Shown here piece after piece: positions 9,329 to 31,960 of a stretch of DNA of 35,822 bases; position 1 is the stretch's first letter, and every line of letters begins with the position of its first letter. The notes below the pieces were generated by a model. The model worked only from the letters and a program-made list of their open reading frames with translations. It ran no database searches and was not told the origin of the DNA. Source of the DNA: a virus. Where the stretch lies: UHGV virus genome UHGV-1355336. One strand, given 5' to 3'. Made by a program: the position numbers and the translations under genes.

Positions 9329-9912
9329 TGGCATTCAGAATGAGTGAACAACCACGGACCATAAAAATTTATAATCTGCTGGCCGGAACTAATGAATTTA
9401 TTGGTGAAGGTGACGCATATATTCCGCCTCATACAGGTCTGCCAGCAAACAGTACCGATATTGCACCGCCAGATATTCCGGCAGGCTTCGTGGCTGTTTT
9501 CAACAGTGATGAGGCATCGTGGCATCTCGTTGAAGATCATCGGGGTAAAACGGTTTATGACGTGGCTTCCGGCGACGCGTTATTTATTTCTGAACTCGGT
9601 CCGTTACCGGAAAATGCCACTTGGTTATCCCCGGAAGGGGAGTTTCAGAAGTGGAACGGCACAGCCTGGGTGAAAGATGCAGAAGCAGAAAAACTATTCC
9701 GGATCCGGGAGGCGGAAGAAACAAAAAACAGCCTGATGCAGGCAGCGAATGAGCATATTGCGCCACTTCAGGATGCTGTAGATCTGGAAATCGCAACGGA
9801 GGAAGAAACCTTGTTGCTGGAAGCCTGGAAAAAGTATCGGGTGTTGCTGAACCGTGTTGATACATCAACTGCACCTGATATTGAGTGGCCTACGAACCCT
9901 GTCAGGGAGTAA
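9328..9912 (+). CDS. tfa: Tail fibre assembly chaperone Tfa
   Basis: 194 aa, start overlaps stf stop (TAATG); [54 protein letters not shown]... is typical Tfa. Confidence 0.85.
9751..9867 (+). repeat. Direct repeat copy 1 (3' part of tfa); copy 2 lies in the downstream tfa fragment
   Basis: [30 protein letters not shown] coding stretch recurs near-identically at ~10800-10913. Confidence 0.6.
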
Positions 9913-26898: not shown

Positions 26899-27894
26899 GT
26901 GACCGTGAGAGCACTACTGACCCCTGAAATTGCCCCGCGTATGGGGATCGTATTGTTCAGGCCAGGTTCAGAGCTGATGCCCCTGTTTATGCAGGGGCGT
27001 GTCCTGCTGGAGCCTGAGCCGGAACGTTATTCATCTTTCGCCAGTGGTGCCGTTCCGGCGGCATCACAACCGCTGGCGGATGATCCTGCCGTTCGGGCCG
27101 TGTTCCGCAATGAGGCAGTGATCCGTCGTGCTGGTGGCGTGGAATGTCTTGAAAGCTGGTTACTTCGTGAAAAGGGCTGTCAGTGGCCTCATTCCGACTG
27201 GCACAGCGAGAACATGACCACAATGCGACACGCGCCGGGCGCAATTCGTCTGTGTTGGCACTGCGATAACCAGTTGCGTGATCAGTTCACGGAACGGCTG
27301 GAATCAATGGCAACGGATAACTGTGCCCACTGGGTGTTATCTGTCGTGCGTCGGGATCTCGGTTTTGATGACAGTCACGTAGTGACAATGCCGGAACTGT
27401 GCTGGTGGCTGGTTCGTAATGACCTGGCGGATGCCTTACCGGAAAGTGCAGCCCGTAAGGCACTGAGATTACCGAAGCCGGTTGTGCCGTCTGTCACCCG
27501 GGAGAGTGACCTTGTTCCTTCGGTTCCTGCCACCAGCATTATCCAGGATAAAGCGAAAAAGGTGCTGGCGCTGAAAGTGGAGCCAGAGTCGCCGGAGTCT
27601 TTTATGTTACGCCCAAAACGTCGCCGCTGGGTTAATGAAAAGTACACGCGCTGGGTTAAGACACAGCCGTGTGCATGTTGTGGAAAGCCTGCTGATGATC
27701 CCCACCACCTGATAGGCCATGGTCAGGGTGGAATGGGTACAAAAGCGCATGACCTCTTTGTGTTGCCTTTGTGCAGAAAGCATCACGACGAGCTGCATGC
27801 GGATACCGTGGCATTTGAAGAGATGTATGGCTCCCAGCTGGAGCTGATATTTCGTTTTATCGATCATGCGCTGGCAATAGGCGTACTGGCGTAA
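26899..27894 (+). CDS. DUF968-type protein with HNH-like zinc-binding C-terminus (YdfU-like)
   Basis: 331 aa; C-terminal CACCGKPADDPHHLIGHGQGGMGTKAHDLFVLPLCRKHHDELH; directly upstream of Q. Confidence 0.55.
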   Translation: MTVRALLTPEIAPRMGIVLFRPGSELMPLFMQGRVLLEPEPERYSSFASGAVPAASQPLADDPAVRAVFRNEAVIRRAGGVECLESWLLREKGCQWPHSDWHSENMTTMRHAPGAIRLCWHCDNQLRDQFTERLESMATDNCAHWVLSVVRRDLGFDDSHVVTMPELCWWLVRNDLADALPESAARKALRLPKPVVPSVTRESDLVPSVPATSIIQDKAKKVLALKVEPESPESFMLRPKRRRWVNEKYTRWVKTQPCACCGKPADDPHHLIGHGQGGMGTKAHDLFVLPLCRKHHDELHADTVAFEEMYGSQLELIFRFIDHALAIGVLA

Positions 27895-27907: not shown

Positions 27908-28660
27908 ATGAACCTTGAAGCCTTACCAAAATATTACTCCCCAAAATCTCCAAAATTGAGCGATGACGCACCGGCGACAGGCTCAGGTGGTTTAACGATT
28001 ACGGATGTGATGGCTGCGCAGGGGATGGTGCAGTCGAAAGCACCGCTTGGGTTTGCCTTATTCCTGGCAAAAGTTGGTGTTCAGGATCCTCAGTTTGCGA
28101 TTGAAGGTCTGCTCAATTACGCGATGGCAATGGATAACCCGACATTGAACAAATTGAGTGAAGAAACCCGGTTACAGATCATCCCTTACCTTGTGAGTTT
28201 TGCCTTTGCTGATTATTCCAGGTCTGCGGCAAGTAAGGCTCGCTGTGAGCATTGTGCTGGTACTGGATTTCATAGTGTATTGCGCGAAGTGGTGAAACAC
28301 TCCAGAAGCGGGGAATCTGTTATCAAGGAAGAGTGGGTGAAGGAATTATGTCAGCATTGCCATGGTAAGGGAGAAGTCAGCACGGCTTGCAGAGGGTGTA
28401 AGGGTAAAGGCATTGTCCTGGATGAAAAAAGAACCCGGCTTCATGGCGCGCCTGTTTATAAGATTTGTGGGCGTTGCAATGGAAACCGGTTTAGTCGTTT
28501 ACCGACCACACTGGCACGACGTCATGTCCAGAAGCTGGTACCAGACCTGACTGATTATCAGTGGTACAAAGGATATGCAGACGTCATTGATAAACTGGTA
28601 ACAAAGTGCTGGCAGGAAGAAGCATTCGCTGAAGCACAATTGAGAAAGGTGACGAGATAA
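27908..28660 (+). CDS. Q: Late-gene antiterminator Q (QuuQ-type, 250 aa)
   Basis: Cys-rich zinc-binding region (CEHCAGTG...CQHCHGKG...CRGCKGKG...CGRCNG); followed by promoter-like sequence and an intrinsic terminator. Confidence 0.75.
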   Translation: MNLEALPKYYSPKSPKLSDDAPATGSGGLTITDVMAAQGMVQSKAPLGFALFLAKVGVQDPQFAIEGLLNYAMAMDNPTLNKLSEETRLQIIPYLVSFAFADYSRSAASKARCEHCAGTGFHSVLREVVKHSRSGESVIKEEWVKELCQHCHGKGEVSTACRGCKGKGIVLDEKRTRLHGAPVYKICGRCNGNRFSRLPTTLARRHVQKLVPDLTDYQWYKGYADVIDKLVTKCWQEEAFAEAQLRKVTR

Positions 28661-28691: not shown

Positions 28692-28720
28692 TTGCATTTC
28701 TCAAAAAATATGGATAAGAT
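28692..28720 (+). promoter_or_regulatory. Candidate late promoter pR' (TTGCAT-17-TAAGAT)
   Basis: Sigma-70-like hexamers with 17-nt spacer ~30 nt after the Q stop and ~45 nt before a terminator. Confidence 0.4.
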
Positions 28721-28765
28721 TTTCCCAACGATGGGCTTTGTATGTCTACCGTTGATGAGTCCAAG

Positions 28766-28797
28766 AACCCGCCGCCGAGCGGGTTAAATTATTTTTT
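28766..28797 (+). terminator. Candidate tR' intrinsic terminator
   Basis: AACCCGC-CGCCGA-GCGGGTT hairpin followed by AAATTATTTTTTCTT. Confidence 0.6.
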
Positions 28798-28814
28798 CTT
28801 ACACGGGGATATGG

Positions 28815-29345
28815 ATGTTATACCGAGATCTTTTGCCTATTTTCTCAGAAAGACCCATATTTAAAGCTCCTGAGGCTGAAAGAATACTTCGTGAGCAATA
28901 TTCTATCGCCGCCCCCACTCCTGTAATTCAGGAGATTTATTATGGATTGGCAGGTTATGACAGATTTCAGGAGCTTTATGGGGATCTTAATATTGACCAA
29001 ATCGAATGGAAATTGATTGAACTTCCCACTAAAAATTTTTTAACTATCGGGGATAATGCTACTTACCCTGATTTTTTGCATGAGGTCGTTGAAGATTTCA
29101 CAACCCGTAAAGGCGATGTATTTATGGATGATGAAATAAAAGCGCATTGGTGTAATTTTGGCACATGGTGTGAACCTCCATTTTTTATAGATCGAGCTTT
29201 GCTGAAAAGTAATACAACAGGGCTTCATTTAATGGAAGGGCATACAAGAGTTGGAACCCTGTTAGGGGCAGTTAAGTATAACTTCGTTAAGCTTGCTAAT
29301 ACTCATAAAATTTATTATGCGCAAGCAAAAGAATGTATTAAATAA
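28815..29345 (+). CDS. Unknown-function protein (176 aa) in the Q-S cargo position
   Basis: ATG preceded by GGGGAT; AT-rich compared with flanking phage genes; followed by its own terminator; contains LMEGHTRVGTLLGA, weakly reminiscent of ParB/Srx DGHHR motifs. Confidence 0.5.
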   Translation: MLYRDLLPIFSERPIFKAPEAERILREQYSIAAPTPVIQEIYYGLAGYDRFQELYGDLNIDQIEWKLIELPTKNFLTIGDNATYPDFLHEVVEDFTTRKGDVFMDDEIKAHWCNFGTWCEPPFFIDRALLKSNTTGLHLMEGHTRVGTLLGAVKYNFVKLANTHKIYYAQAKECIK

Positions 29346-29381
29346 GTTGAGTGAAATTACTGTTTTTTTTTAACAATACTT

Positions 29382-29404
29382 ACCGCGTTCTCGCGGTTTT
29401 TTTA
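29382..29404 (+). terminator. Rho-independent terminator after the 176-aa ORF
   Basis: ACCGCG-TTCT-CGCGGT followed by TTTTTTT. Confidence 0.6.
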
Positions 29405-29526
29405 TAAATTAAACATTGGTGCAGTACGGTAAACACGCTGGTGGTCGTGAATACTGACTTTTTATCTTGCTGGCTTTTTAGACAAGAGTTATTGGTATGT
29501 CATGTTAACCATGAAGGTAAAAAGAC

Positions 29527-29721
29527 ATGCTAAAACAGCAAGATATGACAGAAACGGCGAAAGTTGTTTTTAATGAATTAAACGGCAAACCGGCAACAGT
29601 CGGGGAGATAGCACAAAACACATACCTTTCACGCGAACGCTGTCAGTTAATACTGACCCAGCTGGTTATGGCGGGGCTGGCAGATTACCAGTTCGGCTGT
29701 TACAGACGCCTTCAGCAATGA
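29527..29721 (+). CDS. Small hypothetical protein (64 aa), possible winged-helix DNA binder
   Basis: MLKQQDMTETAKVVFNELNGKPATVGEIAQNTYLSRERCQLILTQLVMAGLADYQF; weak RBS; call is tentative. Confidence 0.35.
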   Translation: MLKQQDMTETAKVVFNELNGKPATVGEIAQNTYLSRERCQLILTQLVMAGLADYQFGCYRRLQQ

Positions 29722-29870
29722 AGGGCTTTTAATTTGTGAAAATGGGCGGCTGGTGGGTGTTGGTAGCACCTGCCAGCCATTCGCTCATGCTTACTGGTCA
29801 CAAGCGAACCATGGCCCACTGCTTTAGCGCAAAAGCAGAGTGAGCCTACCAGAGTTACGCTTACTGATCC

Positions 29871-30932
29871 ATGAAAAACACTGTAAAAATAAACAGTATT
29901 GATTTAATCAACGCTGATTGCCTGCATTTTATTCAGTCCCTGCCTGATGATTCCATTGACCTGATTGTTACCGATCCGCCTTACTTCAAGGTGAAACCCA
30001 ACGGTTGGGACAATCAGTGGAAAGGGGACGAAGATTACCTTAAGTGGCTGGACCACTGTCTGGCCCAGTTCTGGCAGGTGTTGAAACCTGCCGGAAGCCT
30101 TTACCTGTTCTGTGGGCATCGCCTGGCATCTGATATTGAGATCATGATGCGTGAACGTTTCAACGTGCTTAACCATATCATCTGGGCGAAGCCGTCCGGA
30201 CGTTGGAATGGGTGTAATAAAGAAAGTCTGCGCGCATATTTTCCTGCCACAGAGCGCGTTCTGTTTGCTGAACATTACCGGGGGCCATATCGCGGCAAAA
30301 GTGACGGCTATGTGGCAAAAGAAAGGGAACTCAAACAGCACATAATGGCACCGCTGATATCGTATTTCAGGGATGCTCGTGCCGAACTGGGTATAACGGC
30401 AAAACAAATTGCCGAAGCCACAGGTAAGAAAAATATGGTTTCCCACTGGTTTGGTGCCAGTCAGTGGCAGTTGCCGAATGAGGCTGACTACCGGAAGTTA
30501 CAGGCACTGTTTTCCCGTATAGCGGCAGAGAAGTTTCAGGAACAACAACTGGAACAACCACACCACCAGTTGGTGGCATCTTATGATTCACTGAATCGCA
30601 AATATTCTGAATTGCTGGATGAGTTTAAATCTCTCCGGCGCTATTTCTCCGTATCAGTCTCCGTGCCTTATACCGATGTCTGGATGCATAAACCCGTTCA
30701 GTTCTACCCGGGTAAACATCCGTGTGAGAAACCGGCGGATATGCTCAGGCAAATAATCAATGCCAGTAGTCGACCCGGCGATCTGGTTGCTGATTTCTTT
30801 ATGGGATCCGGTTCCACAATAAAAGCAGCAATGGCGCTGGGGCGTCGGGCGTTAGGTGTTGAGCTTGAGACAGAGCGGTTTAATCAGACCATCCAGGAAA
30901 TCAGTATGTTATCAGCAAATACAATTTTGTGA
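29871..30932 (+). CDS. DNA methyltransferase, beta-class (motif IV DPPY before motif I FxGxG); likely N6-adenine, orphan
   Basis: VTDPPYF near the N-terminus and DFFMGSGST near the C-terminus; no adjacent restriction endonuclease candidate. Confidence 0.8.
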   Translation: MKNTVKINSIDLINADCLHFIQSLPDDSIDLIVTDPPYFKVKPNGWDNQWKGDEDYLKWLDHCLAQFWQVLKPAGSLYLFCGHRLASDIEIMMRERFNVLNHIIWAKPSGRWNGCNKESLRAYFPATERVLFAEHYRGPYRGKSDGYVAKERELKQHIMAPLISYFRDARAELGITAKQIAEATGKKNMVSHWFGASQWQLPNEADYRKLQALFSRIAAEKFQEQQLEQPHHQLVASYDSLNRKYSELLDEFKSLRRYFSVSVSVPYTDVWMHKPVQFYPGKHPCEKPADMLRQIINASSRPGDLVADFFMGSGSTIKAAMALGRRALGVELETERFNQTIQEISMLSANTIL

Positions 30933-31173: not shown

Positions 31174-31214
31174 AGCTGTCAGATTAGCGCGATAATCTGA
31201 CAGCTTTTTTTTTA
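31174..31214 (+). terminator. Strong intrinsic terminator (13-bp stem AGCTGTCAGATTA..TAATCTGACAGCT then T9)
   Basis: Read directly; about 235 nt downstream of the candidate promoter. Confidence 0.6.
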
Positions 31215-31503
31215 CAACGAATCCTTCTGATCTGCTTTTGCGGGGCTTTTTTGTATCCGCTCCATGCCCGGCGTATAAGCGGAGGTTGGTCAGTTTTCTA
31301 AAAATTGAAATACCTCACAATTCAGCCAGTTAATGGTTGTTTGTCTGGCGAAGAGTTTGTAAATAAAAAAACGCATGGTGAATCCCCCTAAGCGGCGGGG
31401 CGAATCAGCAGTCAGTTCTGGGATAATCGCGGGTTCGTATGCTGATGCCGGACTCACCGGGAGGCACCCGGCACCATGCATCATGGTCATCCCCTTGTAT
31501 GAT

Positions 31504-31529
31504 ACCCCTCTCCGGAGGGGTATTTTTTG
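31504..31529 (+). terminator. Intrinsic terminator (ACCCCTC-TCCG-GAGGGGT then ATTTTTT)
   Basis: Read directly in ORF-poor DNA upstream of the holin. Confidence 0.6.
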
Positions 31530-31960
31530 GATAAAAAAGCCCGCGCTGGGAGGCACGGGCGGCAAGGAATAAAACGTGAAGAAATTTTCACAGGCGCATA
31601 ATAATCCGATGTTGCCAGATTTTGCAACTGCATCATCTGGTTATTATGTGAGCTGGAAAATCAGATTCTGTATGGACTGAAGCCATGCTGTTATTTAGGG
31701 CCAAAGAGCTGGCTTTTTCCCGCCTTCTCTCCAGTAACGATTAATGAGAAAAGAATGAAATGCTTTTCCTGGGGAGGAGGGCAGTAGAAAAAAGAACCCG
31801 CCAGCAAAAATATGGGGGATGAACAGCTTTTGCTACTCAGGTTGCTGGCGGGTATGGTTCTTCATGAAATAAGAATGTTACGCGGTATTTTTAATGAAAA
31901 TGATAATTATTGTCAATTGGTTGTGCGTATTTTTTCATACATGACTGGTAAAGGTGATTC

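What the first reader, a model, noticed from the sequence alone, without database searches (positions are those of the whole stretch)
29527..30932. Orphan beta-class DNA methyltransferase with a small upstream ORF and no restriction partner
The motif order (DPPY before FxGxG) indicates a beta-class, probably N6-adenine enzyme. No endonuclease candidate is adjacent. It could be an anti-restriction or epigenetic cargo gene. The 64-aa ORF upstream could be a regulator or could be spurious.
Basis: partly seen in the sequence, partly recalled or inferred. Interest (0 to 1): 0.45.

Follow-up and report, generated by a model that had tools for sequence, protein, structure and literature searches.

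The report
Phage non-specific adenine methylase with RNA leader
This is an ordinary, already annotated prophage gene for an M.EcoGII-type DNA adenine methylase that the phage makes late to shield its DNA from restriction, but the gene is preceded by a conserved folded RNA leader that is absent from Rfam and probably controls its translation.

Summary
Both ORFs are real. ORF 29871-30932 is an intact beta-class N6_N4 methyltransferase (DPPY before FxGxG). It is 80% identical to M.EcoGII, the characterised non-specific adenine methylase of E. coli prophages, and 88% identical to a tested ancestral variant. It has no restriction partner. It lies behind the Q antiterminator gene, a candidate late promoter and two terminators, and ahead of the lysis genes. 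I therefore infer that it is silent in the lysogen and made only after induction.

The 64-aa ORF (29527-29721) is a conserved winged-helix protein, not a spurious ORF. However, at least 20 related loci carry the methylase without it.

The new item is the roughly 130-nt spacer between the two ORFs (29741-29873). It is better conserved than the small ORF. It folds into three hairpins supported by covariation: 28 of 35 pairs show changes on both sides, and an independent test set gives 26 of 35. It ends at the start codon of the methylase operon in 115 of 122 instances, across enterobacterial, Vibrio and Aeromonas phages. It matches no Rfam family. In 12 loci a Mu Com-like zinc-finger ORF lies between the leader and the methylase. 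I read the spacer as a cis-acting translational control leader for a toxic enzyme; that function is inferred, not shown.

The parts
27908..28660 (+). Q late-gene antiterminator gene (250 aa)
   Evidence: Matches Pfam PF03589 Antiterm at 1.7e-53. RefSeq annotates it as 'antitermination protein' in an identical copy.
28692..28735 (+). Candidate late promoter pR': -35 TTGCAT (28692-97), 17-nt spacer, -10 TAAGAT (28715-20), then AACGATGGG (28727-35), which resembles a sigma-dependent pause element
   Evidence: This 105-nt block between the Q stop codon and the first terminator is nearly invariant in the window, SfV and mEp460. The promoter assignment and the resemblance to lambda pR' are inference from memory, and the simple promoter scan did not flag the site.
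28766..28785 (+). tR'-like terminator hairpin. In this window its T-run is replaced by AAATTATTTTTT, because the 176-aa gene is inserted immediately after the stem.
   Evidence: Found by the terminator scan and seen in the alignment with SfV and mEp460. SfV annotates the homologous hairpin as a rho-independent terminator.
28815..29345 (+). AT-rich 176-aa inserted gene (moron) of unknown function, followed by its own terminator at 29382-29397. It is not a conserved partner of the methylase.
   Evidence: GC content is 35-40%. It matches phrog_8867, of unknown function, and has no PADLOC, Pfam or PDB sequence hit. The AF2 model has pLDDT 78 and gives only weak sulfiredoxin / ParB-N matches at E 0.17 and 1.9. 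The gene is absent from SfV, and a different gene occupies the slot in mEp460 and phiP27.
29467..29495 (+). Conserved element upstream of the small ORF: TTGCTG, 17 nt, then TAYNNG, including ..AGAGTTA. It is a candidate promoter or operator of the winged-helix gene.
   Evidence: The positions are invariant across E. coli, Citrobacter, Hafnia and Morganella phages although the flanks diverge. The related pattern TTGCTG-N(6-14)-CAGAGTTA is present in 62 loci, all of which carry the small ORF (one search compared).
29527..29721 (+). 64-aa winged-helix protein gene
   Evidence: It has 320 homologues, which sources name 'TrmB family regulator' or 'DprA-like winged helix', and matches phrog_331. The AF2 model has pLDDT 89 with an H-H-H-beta-hairpin topology. 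Foldseek gives a generic winged helix: IclR DNA-binding domain TM 0.83, SelB RNA-binding winged-helix domain TM 0.77.
29741..29873 (+). Structured mRNA leader with hairpins H1 (29748-29778), H2 (29780-29808) and H3 (29813-29846). The conserved 5' AAUGGGCG and the 3' GAUCCAUG can pair: 29742-46 with 29868-72, which includes A and U of the start codon.
   Evidence: The spacer is more conserved than the flanking ORF. Covariance model R1 finds it in 75 of 94 and 47 of 71 loci, always next to the methylase operon. Covariation is 28/35 and 26/35 pairs, far above the shuffled and slid controls. There is no Rfam match.
29871..30932 (+). M.EcoGII-family beta-class N6-adenine DNA methyltransferase (353 aa)
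   Evidence: Supported by Pfam, 80% identity to M.EcoGII, 81% to the phage 1720a-02 enzyme, 88% to Anc291, and PADLOC MTase_II at 5.5e-150. RefSeq names the protein WP_042033440.1 'DNA-methyltransferase'.
31174..31205 (+). Strong terminator-like hairpin (13-bp stem followed by a T-run) downstream of the methylase
   Evidence: Found by the terminator scan.

Best explanation
The window is a lambdoid E. coli prophage. ORF 29871-30932 encodes a member of the M.EcoGII family: a beta-class, SAM-dependent N6-adenine methyltransferase that (by inference from its relatives) methylates adenines with little or no sequence preference.

The gene lies downstream of Q, a candidate late promoter, a tR'-like terminator and a second terminator, and upstream of the lysis cassette. 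In the lysogen, transcription should stop at those terminators. After induction, Q-modified RNA polymerase should read through, the enzyme would be made late, and it would methylate replicating and packaged phage DNA. Progeny would then be protected from the restriction systems of the next host. No cognate endonuclease exists or is needed.

The enzyme is toxic when over-made, and expression appears to be gated a second time at the RNA level. The 130 nt before the start codon form a conserved three-hairpin leader, and conserved single-stranded segments of this leader can pair with the region around the AUG. I infer that the leader limits or times translation of the methylase. It may do so as a switch between alternative pairings, and it may respond to a protein such as the methylase itself or a phage factor, or to a small ligand.

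The upstream 64-aa winged-helix protein is an accessory regulator with its own conserved upstream element. It is found in many relatives but not all. In other lineages a Mu Com-like zinc-finger gene sits between the leader and the methylase instead.

Shown here: gene identity, intact motifs, family membership by sequence, synteny, and the existence and covariation of the RNA structure. Inferred: non-specificity of this particular enzyme, Q-dependent expression, the anti-restriction role, and the translational function of the leader.
For: Family and motifs.

M.EcoGII biochemistry, toxicity and silence in lysogens: PMC5778455 and PMC12707154. Homologues are predicted non-specific, and no corresponding methylation was detected in STEC lysogens: PMC6602927. 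The ancestral variants Anc291 and SUPREM are active on DNA and RNA (DNA and RNA initial velocities in Supplementary Table S3), and nanopore direct RNA sequencing found them largely non-sequence-specific on RNA: PMC11551740.

Late-operon position: the order Q, then terminator, then (small ORF), then methylase, then holin is seen in SfV, mEp460, phiP27, phiNP, phages of Hafnia, Morganella, Providencia and Serratia, N15, VHML and Aeromonas phiARM81ld. The segment from the Q stop to the terminator is conserved.

Leader RNA. Of 122 instances, 103 end at the methylase ATG and 12 at the ATG of a Com-like CxxC..CxxC ORF that precedes the methylase. No Shine-Dalgarno sequence is visible within 13 nt of the ATG.

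No restriction partner.
Against: Nothing here measures activity or expression.

The target-recognition region (about residues 160-237) differs from that of M.EcoGII at roughly a quarter of positions, so some sequence preference cannot be excluded. The M.EcoGII and Anc291 sequences I compared were read by machine from a supplementary PDF and contain a few errors, so identities are approximate.

The candidate pR' is a weak match to consensus, and the promoter scan did not report it. The T-run of tR' is disrupted in this window, so some read-through into the 176-aa gene is possible.

For the leader, only the three hairpins show covariation. The helix that would sequester the AUG never shows a compensatory change in the MAFFT set or the independent set, and only 4 such cells in the model-fitted set. 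Alternative pairings are equally compatible with the data. The covariance-model alignments are fitted to the model and therefore lean towards it.

The leader could act on RNA stability, processing or transcription elongation rather than on translation.

At least 20 loci have the leader and methylase without the winged-helix gene, so that protein is not an obligatory partner.
Confidence: 0.72

Rival explanations
1. The enzyme is a sequence-specific orphan methylase, like Dam or CcrM, that is expressed in the lysogen and reprogrammes host gene expression as epigenetic cargo.
For: It is an orphan beta-class enzyme, and CcrM and M.BceJIV-type regulators share the fold. The target-recognition region is only about 77% identical to that of M.EcoGII. 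A conserved promoter-like element precedes the small ORF and could in principle drive expression without Q.
Against: The protein is 80% identical to M.EcoGII and 88% to Anc291, both reported as largely non-sequence-specific. M.EcoGI/GII homologues gave no detectable methylation in lysogens (PMC5778455, PMC6602927). The gene is placed between two terminators and the lysis genes in every relative examined. Constitutive expression of M.EcoGII is toxic.
Confidence: 0.1
2. The methylase is the modification half of a restriction-modification system. Its endonuclease would be the neighbouring 176-aa protein or the DUF968/HNH-like protein at 26899-27894.
For: The 331-aa protein has a weak HNHc_6 match (E 9.6e-06, just below the cut-off) and matches phrog_96 'HNH endonuclease'. 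The 176-aa protein has an invariant EGHTRxGxLLG motif and faint ParB-N / sulfiredoxin-like fold matches.
Against: The slot holding the 176-aa gene is variable. It is empty in SfV, holds an unrelated gene in mEp460 and holds a GIY-YIG protein in phiP27. DUF968 precedes Q in nine of the related phage loci and is separated from the methylase by Q and two terminators. I recall it also occurs before Q in lambdoid prophages that lack the methylase, but I did not test that. None of these proteins matches a PADLOC restriction model. The fold matches for the 176-aa protein are not significant. A non-specific methylase has no site for a cognate enzyme to share.
Confidence: 0.03
3. The 64-aa winged-helix protein is a C-protein-like transcriptional controller, or an RNA-binding controller, that is required to switch the methylase on or off. 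The conserved spacer would be its binding target.
For: The protein has a winged-helix fold. It sits immediately upstream in 120 of 131 pattern-matched loci and in 63 of the surveyed loci. It has its own conserved upstream element. Winged-helix domains can bind RNA hairpins, as shown by the SelB match at TM 0.77.
Against: At least 20 loci carry the leader and methylase with no such gene; in Hafnia psychrotolerans, Q is followed directly by the leader. Xenorhabdus and Photorhabdus loci carry the small gene but only a truncated leader. No palindromic C-box was found upstream; there are only weak inverted repeats. There is no restriction gene whose timing would need control.
Confidence: 0.25
4. 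The conserved spacer is conserved because it encodes a small peptide or a DNA-level site, not because of RNA structure.
For: In this window an ATG at 29742 opens a 33-codon ORF ending at 29843. The sequence blocks AAATGGGCGG and GAGCCTA are invariant without any need for pairing.
Against: Many copies have an in-frame TAG at codon 8, or frame-shifting indels, so the peptide is not conserved. Changes in H1, H2 and H3 are compensatory, with up to four different Watson-Crick pair types per position. The many G-U pairs fit only the + strand RNA.
Confidence: 0.05

Closest known systems
M.EcoGII (and M.EcoGI) of E. coli O104:H4 C227-11: the non-specific adenine DNA/RNA methyltransferase (Murray et al. 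2018, PMC5778455)
   Same: Same Pfam family, the same beta-class motif order, about the same length (353 vs 349 aa), and 80% identity over the whole length with only two single-residue gaps, both probably machine-reading artefacts. Both are encoded on lambdoid E. coli prophages. The homologue in phage 1720a-02, which that paper names, is 81% identical and has the same small ORF and leader upstream.
   Different: This allele has not been characterised. About 20% of residues differ, including about a quarter of the target-recognition region. Its last residues differ because a mosaic junction falls near nt 30889. The published work does not describe the leader RNA or the upstream small gene.
Phage Mu com-mom: a late, toxic DNA-modification function under translational control
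   Same: Both are late phage functions that modify adenines, are silent in lysogens and are toxic if made constitutively (PMC12707154). Both have a start region embedded in RNA structure. In 12 relatives of this locus a genuine Com-like CxxC..CxxC zinc-finger ORF sits between the leader and the methylase, overlapping the methylase start where that was examined (L132).
   Different: Mom is not a methyltransferase of this family. The window has no Com gene; it has a winged-helix gene placed upstream of the leader instead. The three-hairpin leader has no counterpart that I know of in Mu (from memory, not tested).
C-protein-controlled Type II restriction-modification systems
   Same: A small helix-turn-helix-type protein gene lies directly upstream of a methylase gene on the same strand.
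   Different: There is no endonuclease, and no C-box palindrome was detected. The small gene is dispensable in many relatives. Its fold is a winged helix rather than the five-helix Xre-type fold of C proteins; that comparison rests on my knowledge of C proteins and was not tested directly.
Other phage orphan methylases (T4 Dam, P1 Dmt, the Dam-like gene in the early regions of SfV and 1720a-02)
   Same: All are orphan, phage-borne adenine methylases with presumed anti-restriction or packaging roles.
   Different: Those enzymes are GATC-specific and belong to different sequence families. The Dam-like genes of SfV and 1720a-02 lie in the early-right operon. This prophage lacks one.

Membership tests
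Beta-class amino-methyltransferases (Pfam PF01555 N6_N4_Mtase) | Profile match above the curated cut-off | tested here: met
   143.5 bits against a cut-off of 26.7, E = 1.2e-41.
Beta-class amino-methyltransferases (Pfam PF01555 N6_N4_Mtase) | Motif order: catalytic (D/S)PPY first, then the target-recognition region, then the SAM-binding FxGxG | tested here: met
   DPPY is at residues 35-38 and FMGSG at 310-314. Both are invariant in the ten-sequence family alignment.
M.EcoGII family (non-specific adenine methylases of temperate phages) | Full-length close sequence relationship to M.EcoGII | tested here: met
   80% identity over 348 aa to M.EcoGII, 81% to the phage 1720a-02 enzyme and 88% to Anc291. 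The reference sequences were read by machine from a supplement.
M.EcoGII family (non-specific adenine methylases of temperate phages) | Methylation of adenine in any sequence context, on ssDNA and RNA as well as dsDNA | not testable with these tools
   This needs expression plus SMRT or nanopore sequencing or LC-MS. It is inferred only from bracketing by tested relatives (PMC5778455, PMC11551740).
M.EcoGII family (non-specific adenine methylases of temperate phages) | Prophage-borne and silent in the lysogen | tested here: inconclusive
   The prophage location and the position behind Q, a candidate pR' and two terminators are shown. Expression itself was not measured.
Type II restriction-modification system | A cognate endonuclease gene adjacent to the methylase | tested here: not met
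   The neighbours are Q, a variable gene of unknown function, the winged-helix gene, an sRNA and lysis genes. None of the neighbours tested has a PADLOC restriction match.
C-protein-controlled restriction-modification systems | A controller protein with a palindromic C-box operator upstream of its own gene, linked to the timing of an endonuclease | tested here: not met
   There is no endonuclease. Only weak inverted repeats lie upstream of the small ORF. The conserved upstream element is not an evident palindrome.
Mu com-mom type translational control | A Com zinc-finger activator gene overlapping the start of the modification gene | tested here: not met
   The window has no CxxC..CxxC ORF at that position. 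Twelve related loci do. The window may work in a similar way but is not a member of this type.
Any described RNA family (Rfam 15) | A covariance-model match to nt 29690-29900 | tested here: not met
   Nothing reaches gathering score in the whole window except STnc100 and IS009. At E <= 10 on the 211-nt region there are only chance-level hits of 16 bits or less.

The most novel reading that the evidence does not exclude
The 130-nt leader (29741-29873) is a previously undescribed class of cis-regulatory RNA dedicated to M.EcoGII-family methylase operons of temperate phages across Enterobacterales, Vibrio and Aeromonas. It would be a bistable or ligand- or protein-responsive element that gates translation of a toxic, non-specific nucleic-acid methylase. 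That could explain why M.EcoGII-type genes are silent in lysogens, and it would offer a compact natural control part for a widely used enzyme. The winged-helix and Com-like proteins would be lineage-specific add-on regulators.
Probability: 0.45. Interest if true: 0.65.

Novelty: new member of a known kind. Interest (0 to 1): 0.45.

Why it matters
The methylase itself adds little. It is another allele of a family present in about 44% of complete E. coli genomes at the DNA level (2373 of 5426), and its chemistry is known from M.EcoGII.

The part worth following up is regulatory. M.EcoGII is a commercial tool used for chromatin and RNA footprinting and is toxic to cells. Reviews note that it is silent in lysogens without saying how. 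A conserved leader with covariation support, which always abuts the start of the operon, gives a concrete and testable candidate for that control. So does the recurrent pairing of that leader with either a winged-helix gene or a Com-like gene. The leader is also a new candidate structured RNA family for Rfam-type curation.

Tried and rejected
- **Restriction partner.** I scanned the 176-aa and DUF968 proteins against Pfam, NCBIfam, PHROGs, PADLOC and PDB sequences, and modelled the 176-aa protein with a fold search. There is no credible nuclease assignment, and the 176-aa slot is variable.
- **tRNA genes.** Stx phages carry tRNA genes downstream of the methylase. This window has none.
- **Rfam assignment of the spacer.** None was found.
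- **Micro-ORF in the spacer (29742-29843).** Rejected, because many homologues have in-frame stops or frameshifts.
- **C-box or operator palindromes upstream of the small ORF.** Only weak repeats were found.
- **Winged-helix protein as obligatory partner of the leader.** Rejected by loci that lack one or the other.
- **A single secondary-structure model for the 5' and 3' single-stranded segments.** RNAalifold gave different long-range pairings on different alignments. Counting shows that both the local H2 and a long-range helix (29795-805 with 29859-70) have some support. I could not decide between a pseudoknot, a switch and a simple closing helix.
- **Literature.** Searches for a described leader or regulator of M.EcoGII-type genes found nothing. 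The library is incomplete, so an earlier description cannot be excluded.
- **Exact M.EcoGII sequence.** It could not be fetched, so I used the machine-read supplement of PMC11551740.
Full report
**What is at the coordinates.** The window carries a 64-aa ORF at 29527-29721 and a 353-aa ORF at 29871-30932, both on the + strand. The large ORF matches Pfam N6_N4_Mtase at E = 1.2e-41. Its nearest solved relatives are beta-class adenine methylases: 8urk, M.RsrI, M.MboIIA and CcrM. DPPY (residues 35-38) precedes FMGSG (residues 310-314). Both motifs, and many other core positions, are invariant in an alignment of ten relatives that are 47-81% identical to it.

**Where the window comes from.** The 2-kb region is 100% identical to many E. 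coli chromosomes. Some part of it is found in 2373 of 5426 complete E. coli genomes. In an identical annotated copy the genes are named hypothetical protein and DNA-methyltransferase. They sit in a lambdoid prophage in this order: KilA-N, DUF968, antiterminator, hypothetical protein, hypothetical protein, methylase, holin, lysozyme, Rz, iss, terminase. The same module of small ORF plus methylase is in phages SfV (orf47/48), mEp460, cdtI, phiP27, 1720a-02 and many Stx2 phages.

**Which methylase.** Murray et al. describe M.EcoGII (349 aa) as a prophage-borne, non-specific adenine methylase. It is silent in the lysogen and harmful when expressed, and they name the phage 1720a-02 enzyme as a close relative (PMC5778455).
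- The window protein is 81% identical to the 1720a-02 enzyme.
- It is 80% identical to the M.EcoGII sequence printed in the supplement of PMC11551740.
- It is 88% identical to Anc291, a reconstructed ancestor that the same paper found active on DNA and RNA and largely free of sequence preference.

The supplement sequences were read by machine, so the identities are approximate. STEC methylome work lists M.EcoGI/GII homologues as 'nonspecific' and finds no corresponding methylation in lysogens (PMC6602927). I file the gene as a new, uncharacterised member of the M.EcoGII family. Non-specificity of this allele is inferred from bracketing by tested relatives.

**No restriction partner.**
- The 331-aa protein upstream of Q is a DUF968 protein with a weak HNH-like match. 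It precedes Q in nine of the related phage loci and is separated from the methylase by Q and two terminators.
- The 176-aa gene between Q and the small ORF is AT-rich and belongs to a PHROG of unknown function. It has no Pfam, PADLOC or PDB sequence hit. Its model gives only non-significant sulfiredoxin / ParB-N similarities.
- That slot is empty in SfV and holds unrelated genes in mEp460 and phiP27.
- Downstream there is only an sRNA and the lysis genes.

**How it is probably expressed.** The 105 nt after the Q stop codon are nearly invariant between the window, SfV and mEp460. They end in a GC-rich hairpin that SfV annotates as a terminator. Within this segment I read TTGCAT, 17 nt, TAAGAT (28692-28720), followed by AACGATGGG (28727-35). 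From memory this resembles the lambda pR' start and its sigma-dependent pause element. That reading is inference, and the simple promoter scan did not flag the site.

In this window the 176-aa gene is inserted exactly where the T-run of the terminator should be, and it brings its own terminator (29382-29397). In every relative examined, the methylase lies between a Q-type gene plus terminator and the holin. This holds for N15, Serratia OS31, Vibrio VHML and Aeromonas phiARM81ld as well. The simplest reading is that the methylase is the first conserved gene of the Q-dependent late operon. That fits its reported silence in lysogens.

**The small ORF.**
- It has 320 homologues across Enterobacterales, which sources name TrmB-family or DprA-like winged helix. 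It stays open at 44-56% identity.
- AlphaFold gives a confident winged helix with pLDDT 89. Fold search returns only generic winged-helix domains, both DNA-binding (IclR) and RNA-binding (SelB).
- About 35-60 nt upstream lies a conserved element, TTGCTG-N17-TAYNNG with ..AGAGTTA. It is invariant across genera, and the loci that match it are all loci that carry the small ORF.
- The ORF is not obligatory. At least 20 loci have the methylase and its leader with unrelated genes, or Q itself, directly upstream.

**The spacer is a structured RNA.**
- *Conservation.* Aligning the region between the two ORFs from nine phages showed that it is better conserved than the small ORF. Long blocks are invariant even in Hafnia, Morganella and Providencia phages.
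- *Linkage.* A pattern from it (AATGGGCGGCTGGNNNGTGTT) occurs at 131 places: in the window, in the phage and prophage loci fetched earlier, and in the 120 IMG/VR stretches it retrieved. Of these, 119 have a DPPY ORF just downstream and 120 have the small ORF just upstream.
- *Unfitted alignment.* On a MAFFT alignment of 25 non-redundant copies, a three-hairpin model gave 9 pairs with changes on both sides against 4.6 in shuffles. It gave 30 such cells against 8.8, and at most 9 when the partners were slid. One H2 pair occurs as C-G, A-U, U-A and U-G.
- *Wider search.* A covariance model built from this alignment found the element in 75 of 94 loci, always directly abutting the methylase. These included weak but significant hits in Serratia OS31, VHML, N15 and phiARM81ld. 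On that alignment 28 of 35 pairs show changes on both sides, with 166 cells against 38 in shuffles and at most 30 when slid.
- *Independent set.* I fetched loci with the VHML enzyme, which is 47% identical to the window protein. The model hit 47 of 71 of them, and 26 of 35 pairs covary, with 206 cells against 67 in shuffles and at most 40 when slid. Model-fitted alignments lean towards the model, but the MAFFT result, the slid controls and the range of pair types argue that the helices are real.
- *Strand.* Frequent G-U pairs place the structure on the + strand RNA.
- *Position.* Of 122 instances, 103 end at the methylase ATG and 12 end at the ATG of a small CxxC..CxxC ORF that resembles Mu Com and precedes the methylase.
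- *Prior description.* Rfam 15 has no match. My literature searches found no description.
- *Not a peptide.* A 33-codon ORF inside the element in this window (29742-29843) is not conserved, because many copies have an in-frame TAG at codon 8.

**What the leader may do.**
- No Shine-Dalgarno sequence is visible within 13 nt of the methylase ATG.
- The invariant 5' AUGGG (29742-46) can pair with UCCAU (29868-72), which includes the first two bases of the start codon.
- Alternatively AUGGGC can pair with GCUCAU (29783-88). The H2 loop and 3' arm (29795-805) can pair with GCUU..GAUCC (29859-70) just before the AUG. These alternatives exclude H2 or the closing helix, yet they also show compatible and some compensatory changes.
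- I therefore favour a leader that occludes or exposes the initiation region, possibly by switching. I cannot say what flips it.
- A dedicated translational activator gene of the Com type in one lineage, and the toxicity of the enzyme, make translational gating the most economical reading. Roles in RNA stability, processing or elongation are not excluded.

**Comparison and novelty.** The gene is a member of the M.EcoGII family by sequence, although the defining biochemical property is untested. It is not part of a restriction-modification system and not a C-protein system. In logic it resembles Mu com-mom, but it does not carry that system's parts. The methylase and the small ORF are already annotated and common. 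The leader RNA is the only element that appears to be undescribed.

**Verdict.** The locus gains moderate interest from the conserved leader, whose structure is well supported but whose function is inferred.

Noticed in passing
window 31344-31532 (+): There is a full-length match to the Rfam sRNA STnc100 (RF02076): 114.5 bits against a gathering score of 47. It ends in a terminator hairpin (31501-31524) and is preceded by TTGAAA-18-GTTAAT. It lies between the methylase and the holin, in a roughly 1-kb segment that SfV and mEp460 lack. Its size and its position just before the lysis genes recall a pR'-tR' short transcript from another phage lineage.
   Followed up: partly
window 28786-29404: An AT-rich 176-aa gene (28815-29345, 35-40% GC) is inserted exactly at the T-run of the tR'-like terminator and carries its own strong terminator (29382-29397). 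Constitutive short transcripts from the late promoter might therefore express this gene in the lysogen while later genes stay silent. The protein has an invariant EGHTRxGxLLG motif and faint ParB-N / sulfiredoxin-like fold hits.
   Followed up: partly
window 29467-29495, and e.g. L005 2941-2965: A conserved element, TTGCTG-N17-TAYNNG including AGAGTTA, lies 35-60 nt upstream of the winged-helix ORF. It is invariant from E. coli to Morganella and Xenorhabdus, and it is present only where that ORF is present. It is not a good sigma-70 -10 element, because G replaces the final T.
   Followed up: partly
L132 1862-2077; L218-L226, L228, L232, L234 (e.g. L220 1035-1160): In Aeromonas phage phiARM81ld and eleven IMG/VR contigs that encode VHML-like methylases, a 36-71-aa ORF with a Mu Com-like CxxC..CxxC zinc finger starts at the 3' end of the leader and precedes the methylase, overlapping its start in phiARM81ld. 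The order there is leader, then com-like gene, then methylase.
   Followed up: partly
L187-L214 (Xenorhabdus and Photorhabdus loci), e.g. L192 2411-2509: These loci keep the winged-helix gene and the methylase but have a spacer of only about 100 nt. It retains H1 and the 3' tail and lacks H3, so the leader is reduced there.
   Followed up: no
window about 30889-30932: DNA similarity to SfV, mEp460 and cdtI stops about 14 codons before the methylase stop codon. The C-terminal residues (…EISMLSANTIL) are therefore specific to this mosaic variant. The family alignment is variable in this tail.
   Followed up: no
window 9671-9869 (+): There is an Rfam match to IS009 (RF02111): 213.9 bits against a gathering score of 117. 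It lies far from the finding, in the left part of the window.
   Followed up: no
L027, L068 (IMG/VR): In these contigs the small ORF and hairpin H1 are present, but the sequence diverges right after H1 into unrelated AT-rich DNA with no methylase. A recombination breakpoint appears to fall inside the leader.
   Followed up: no
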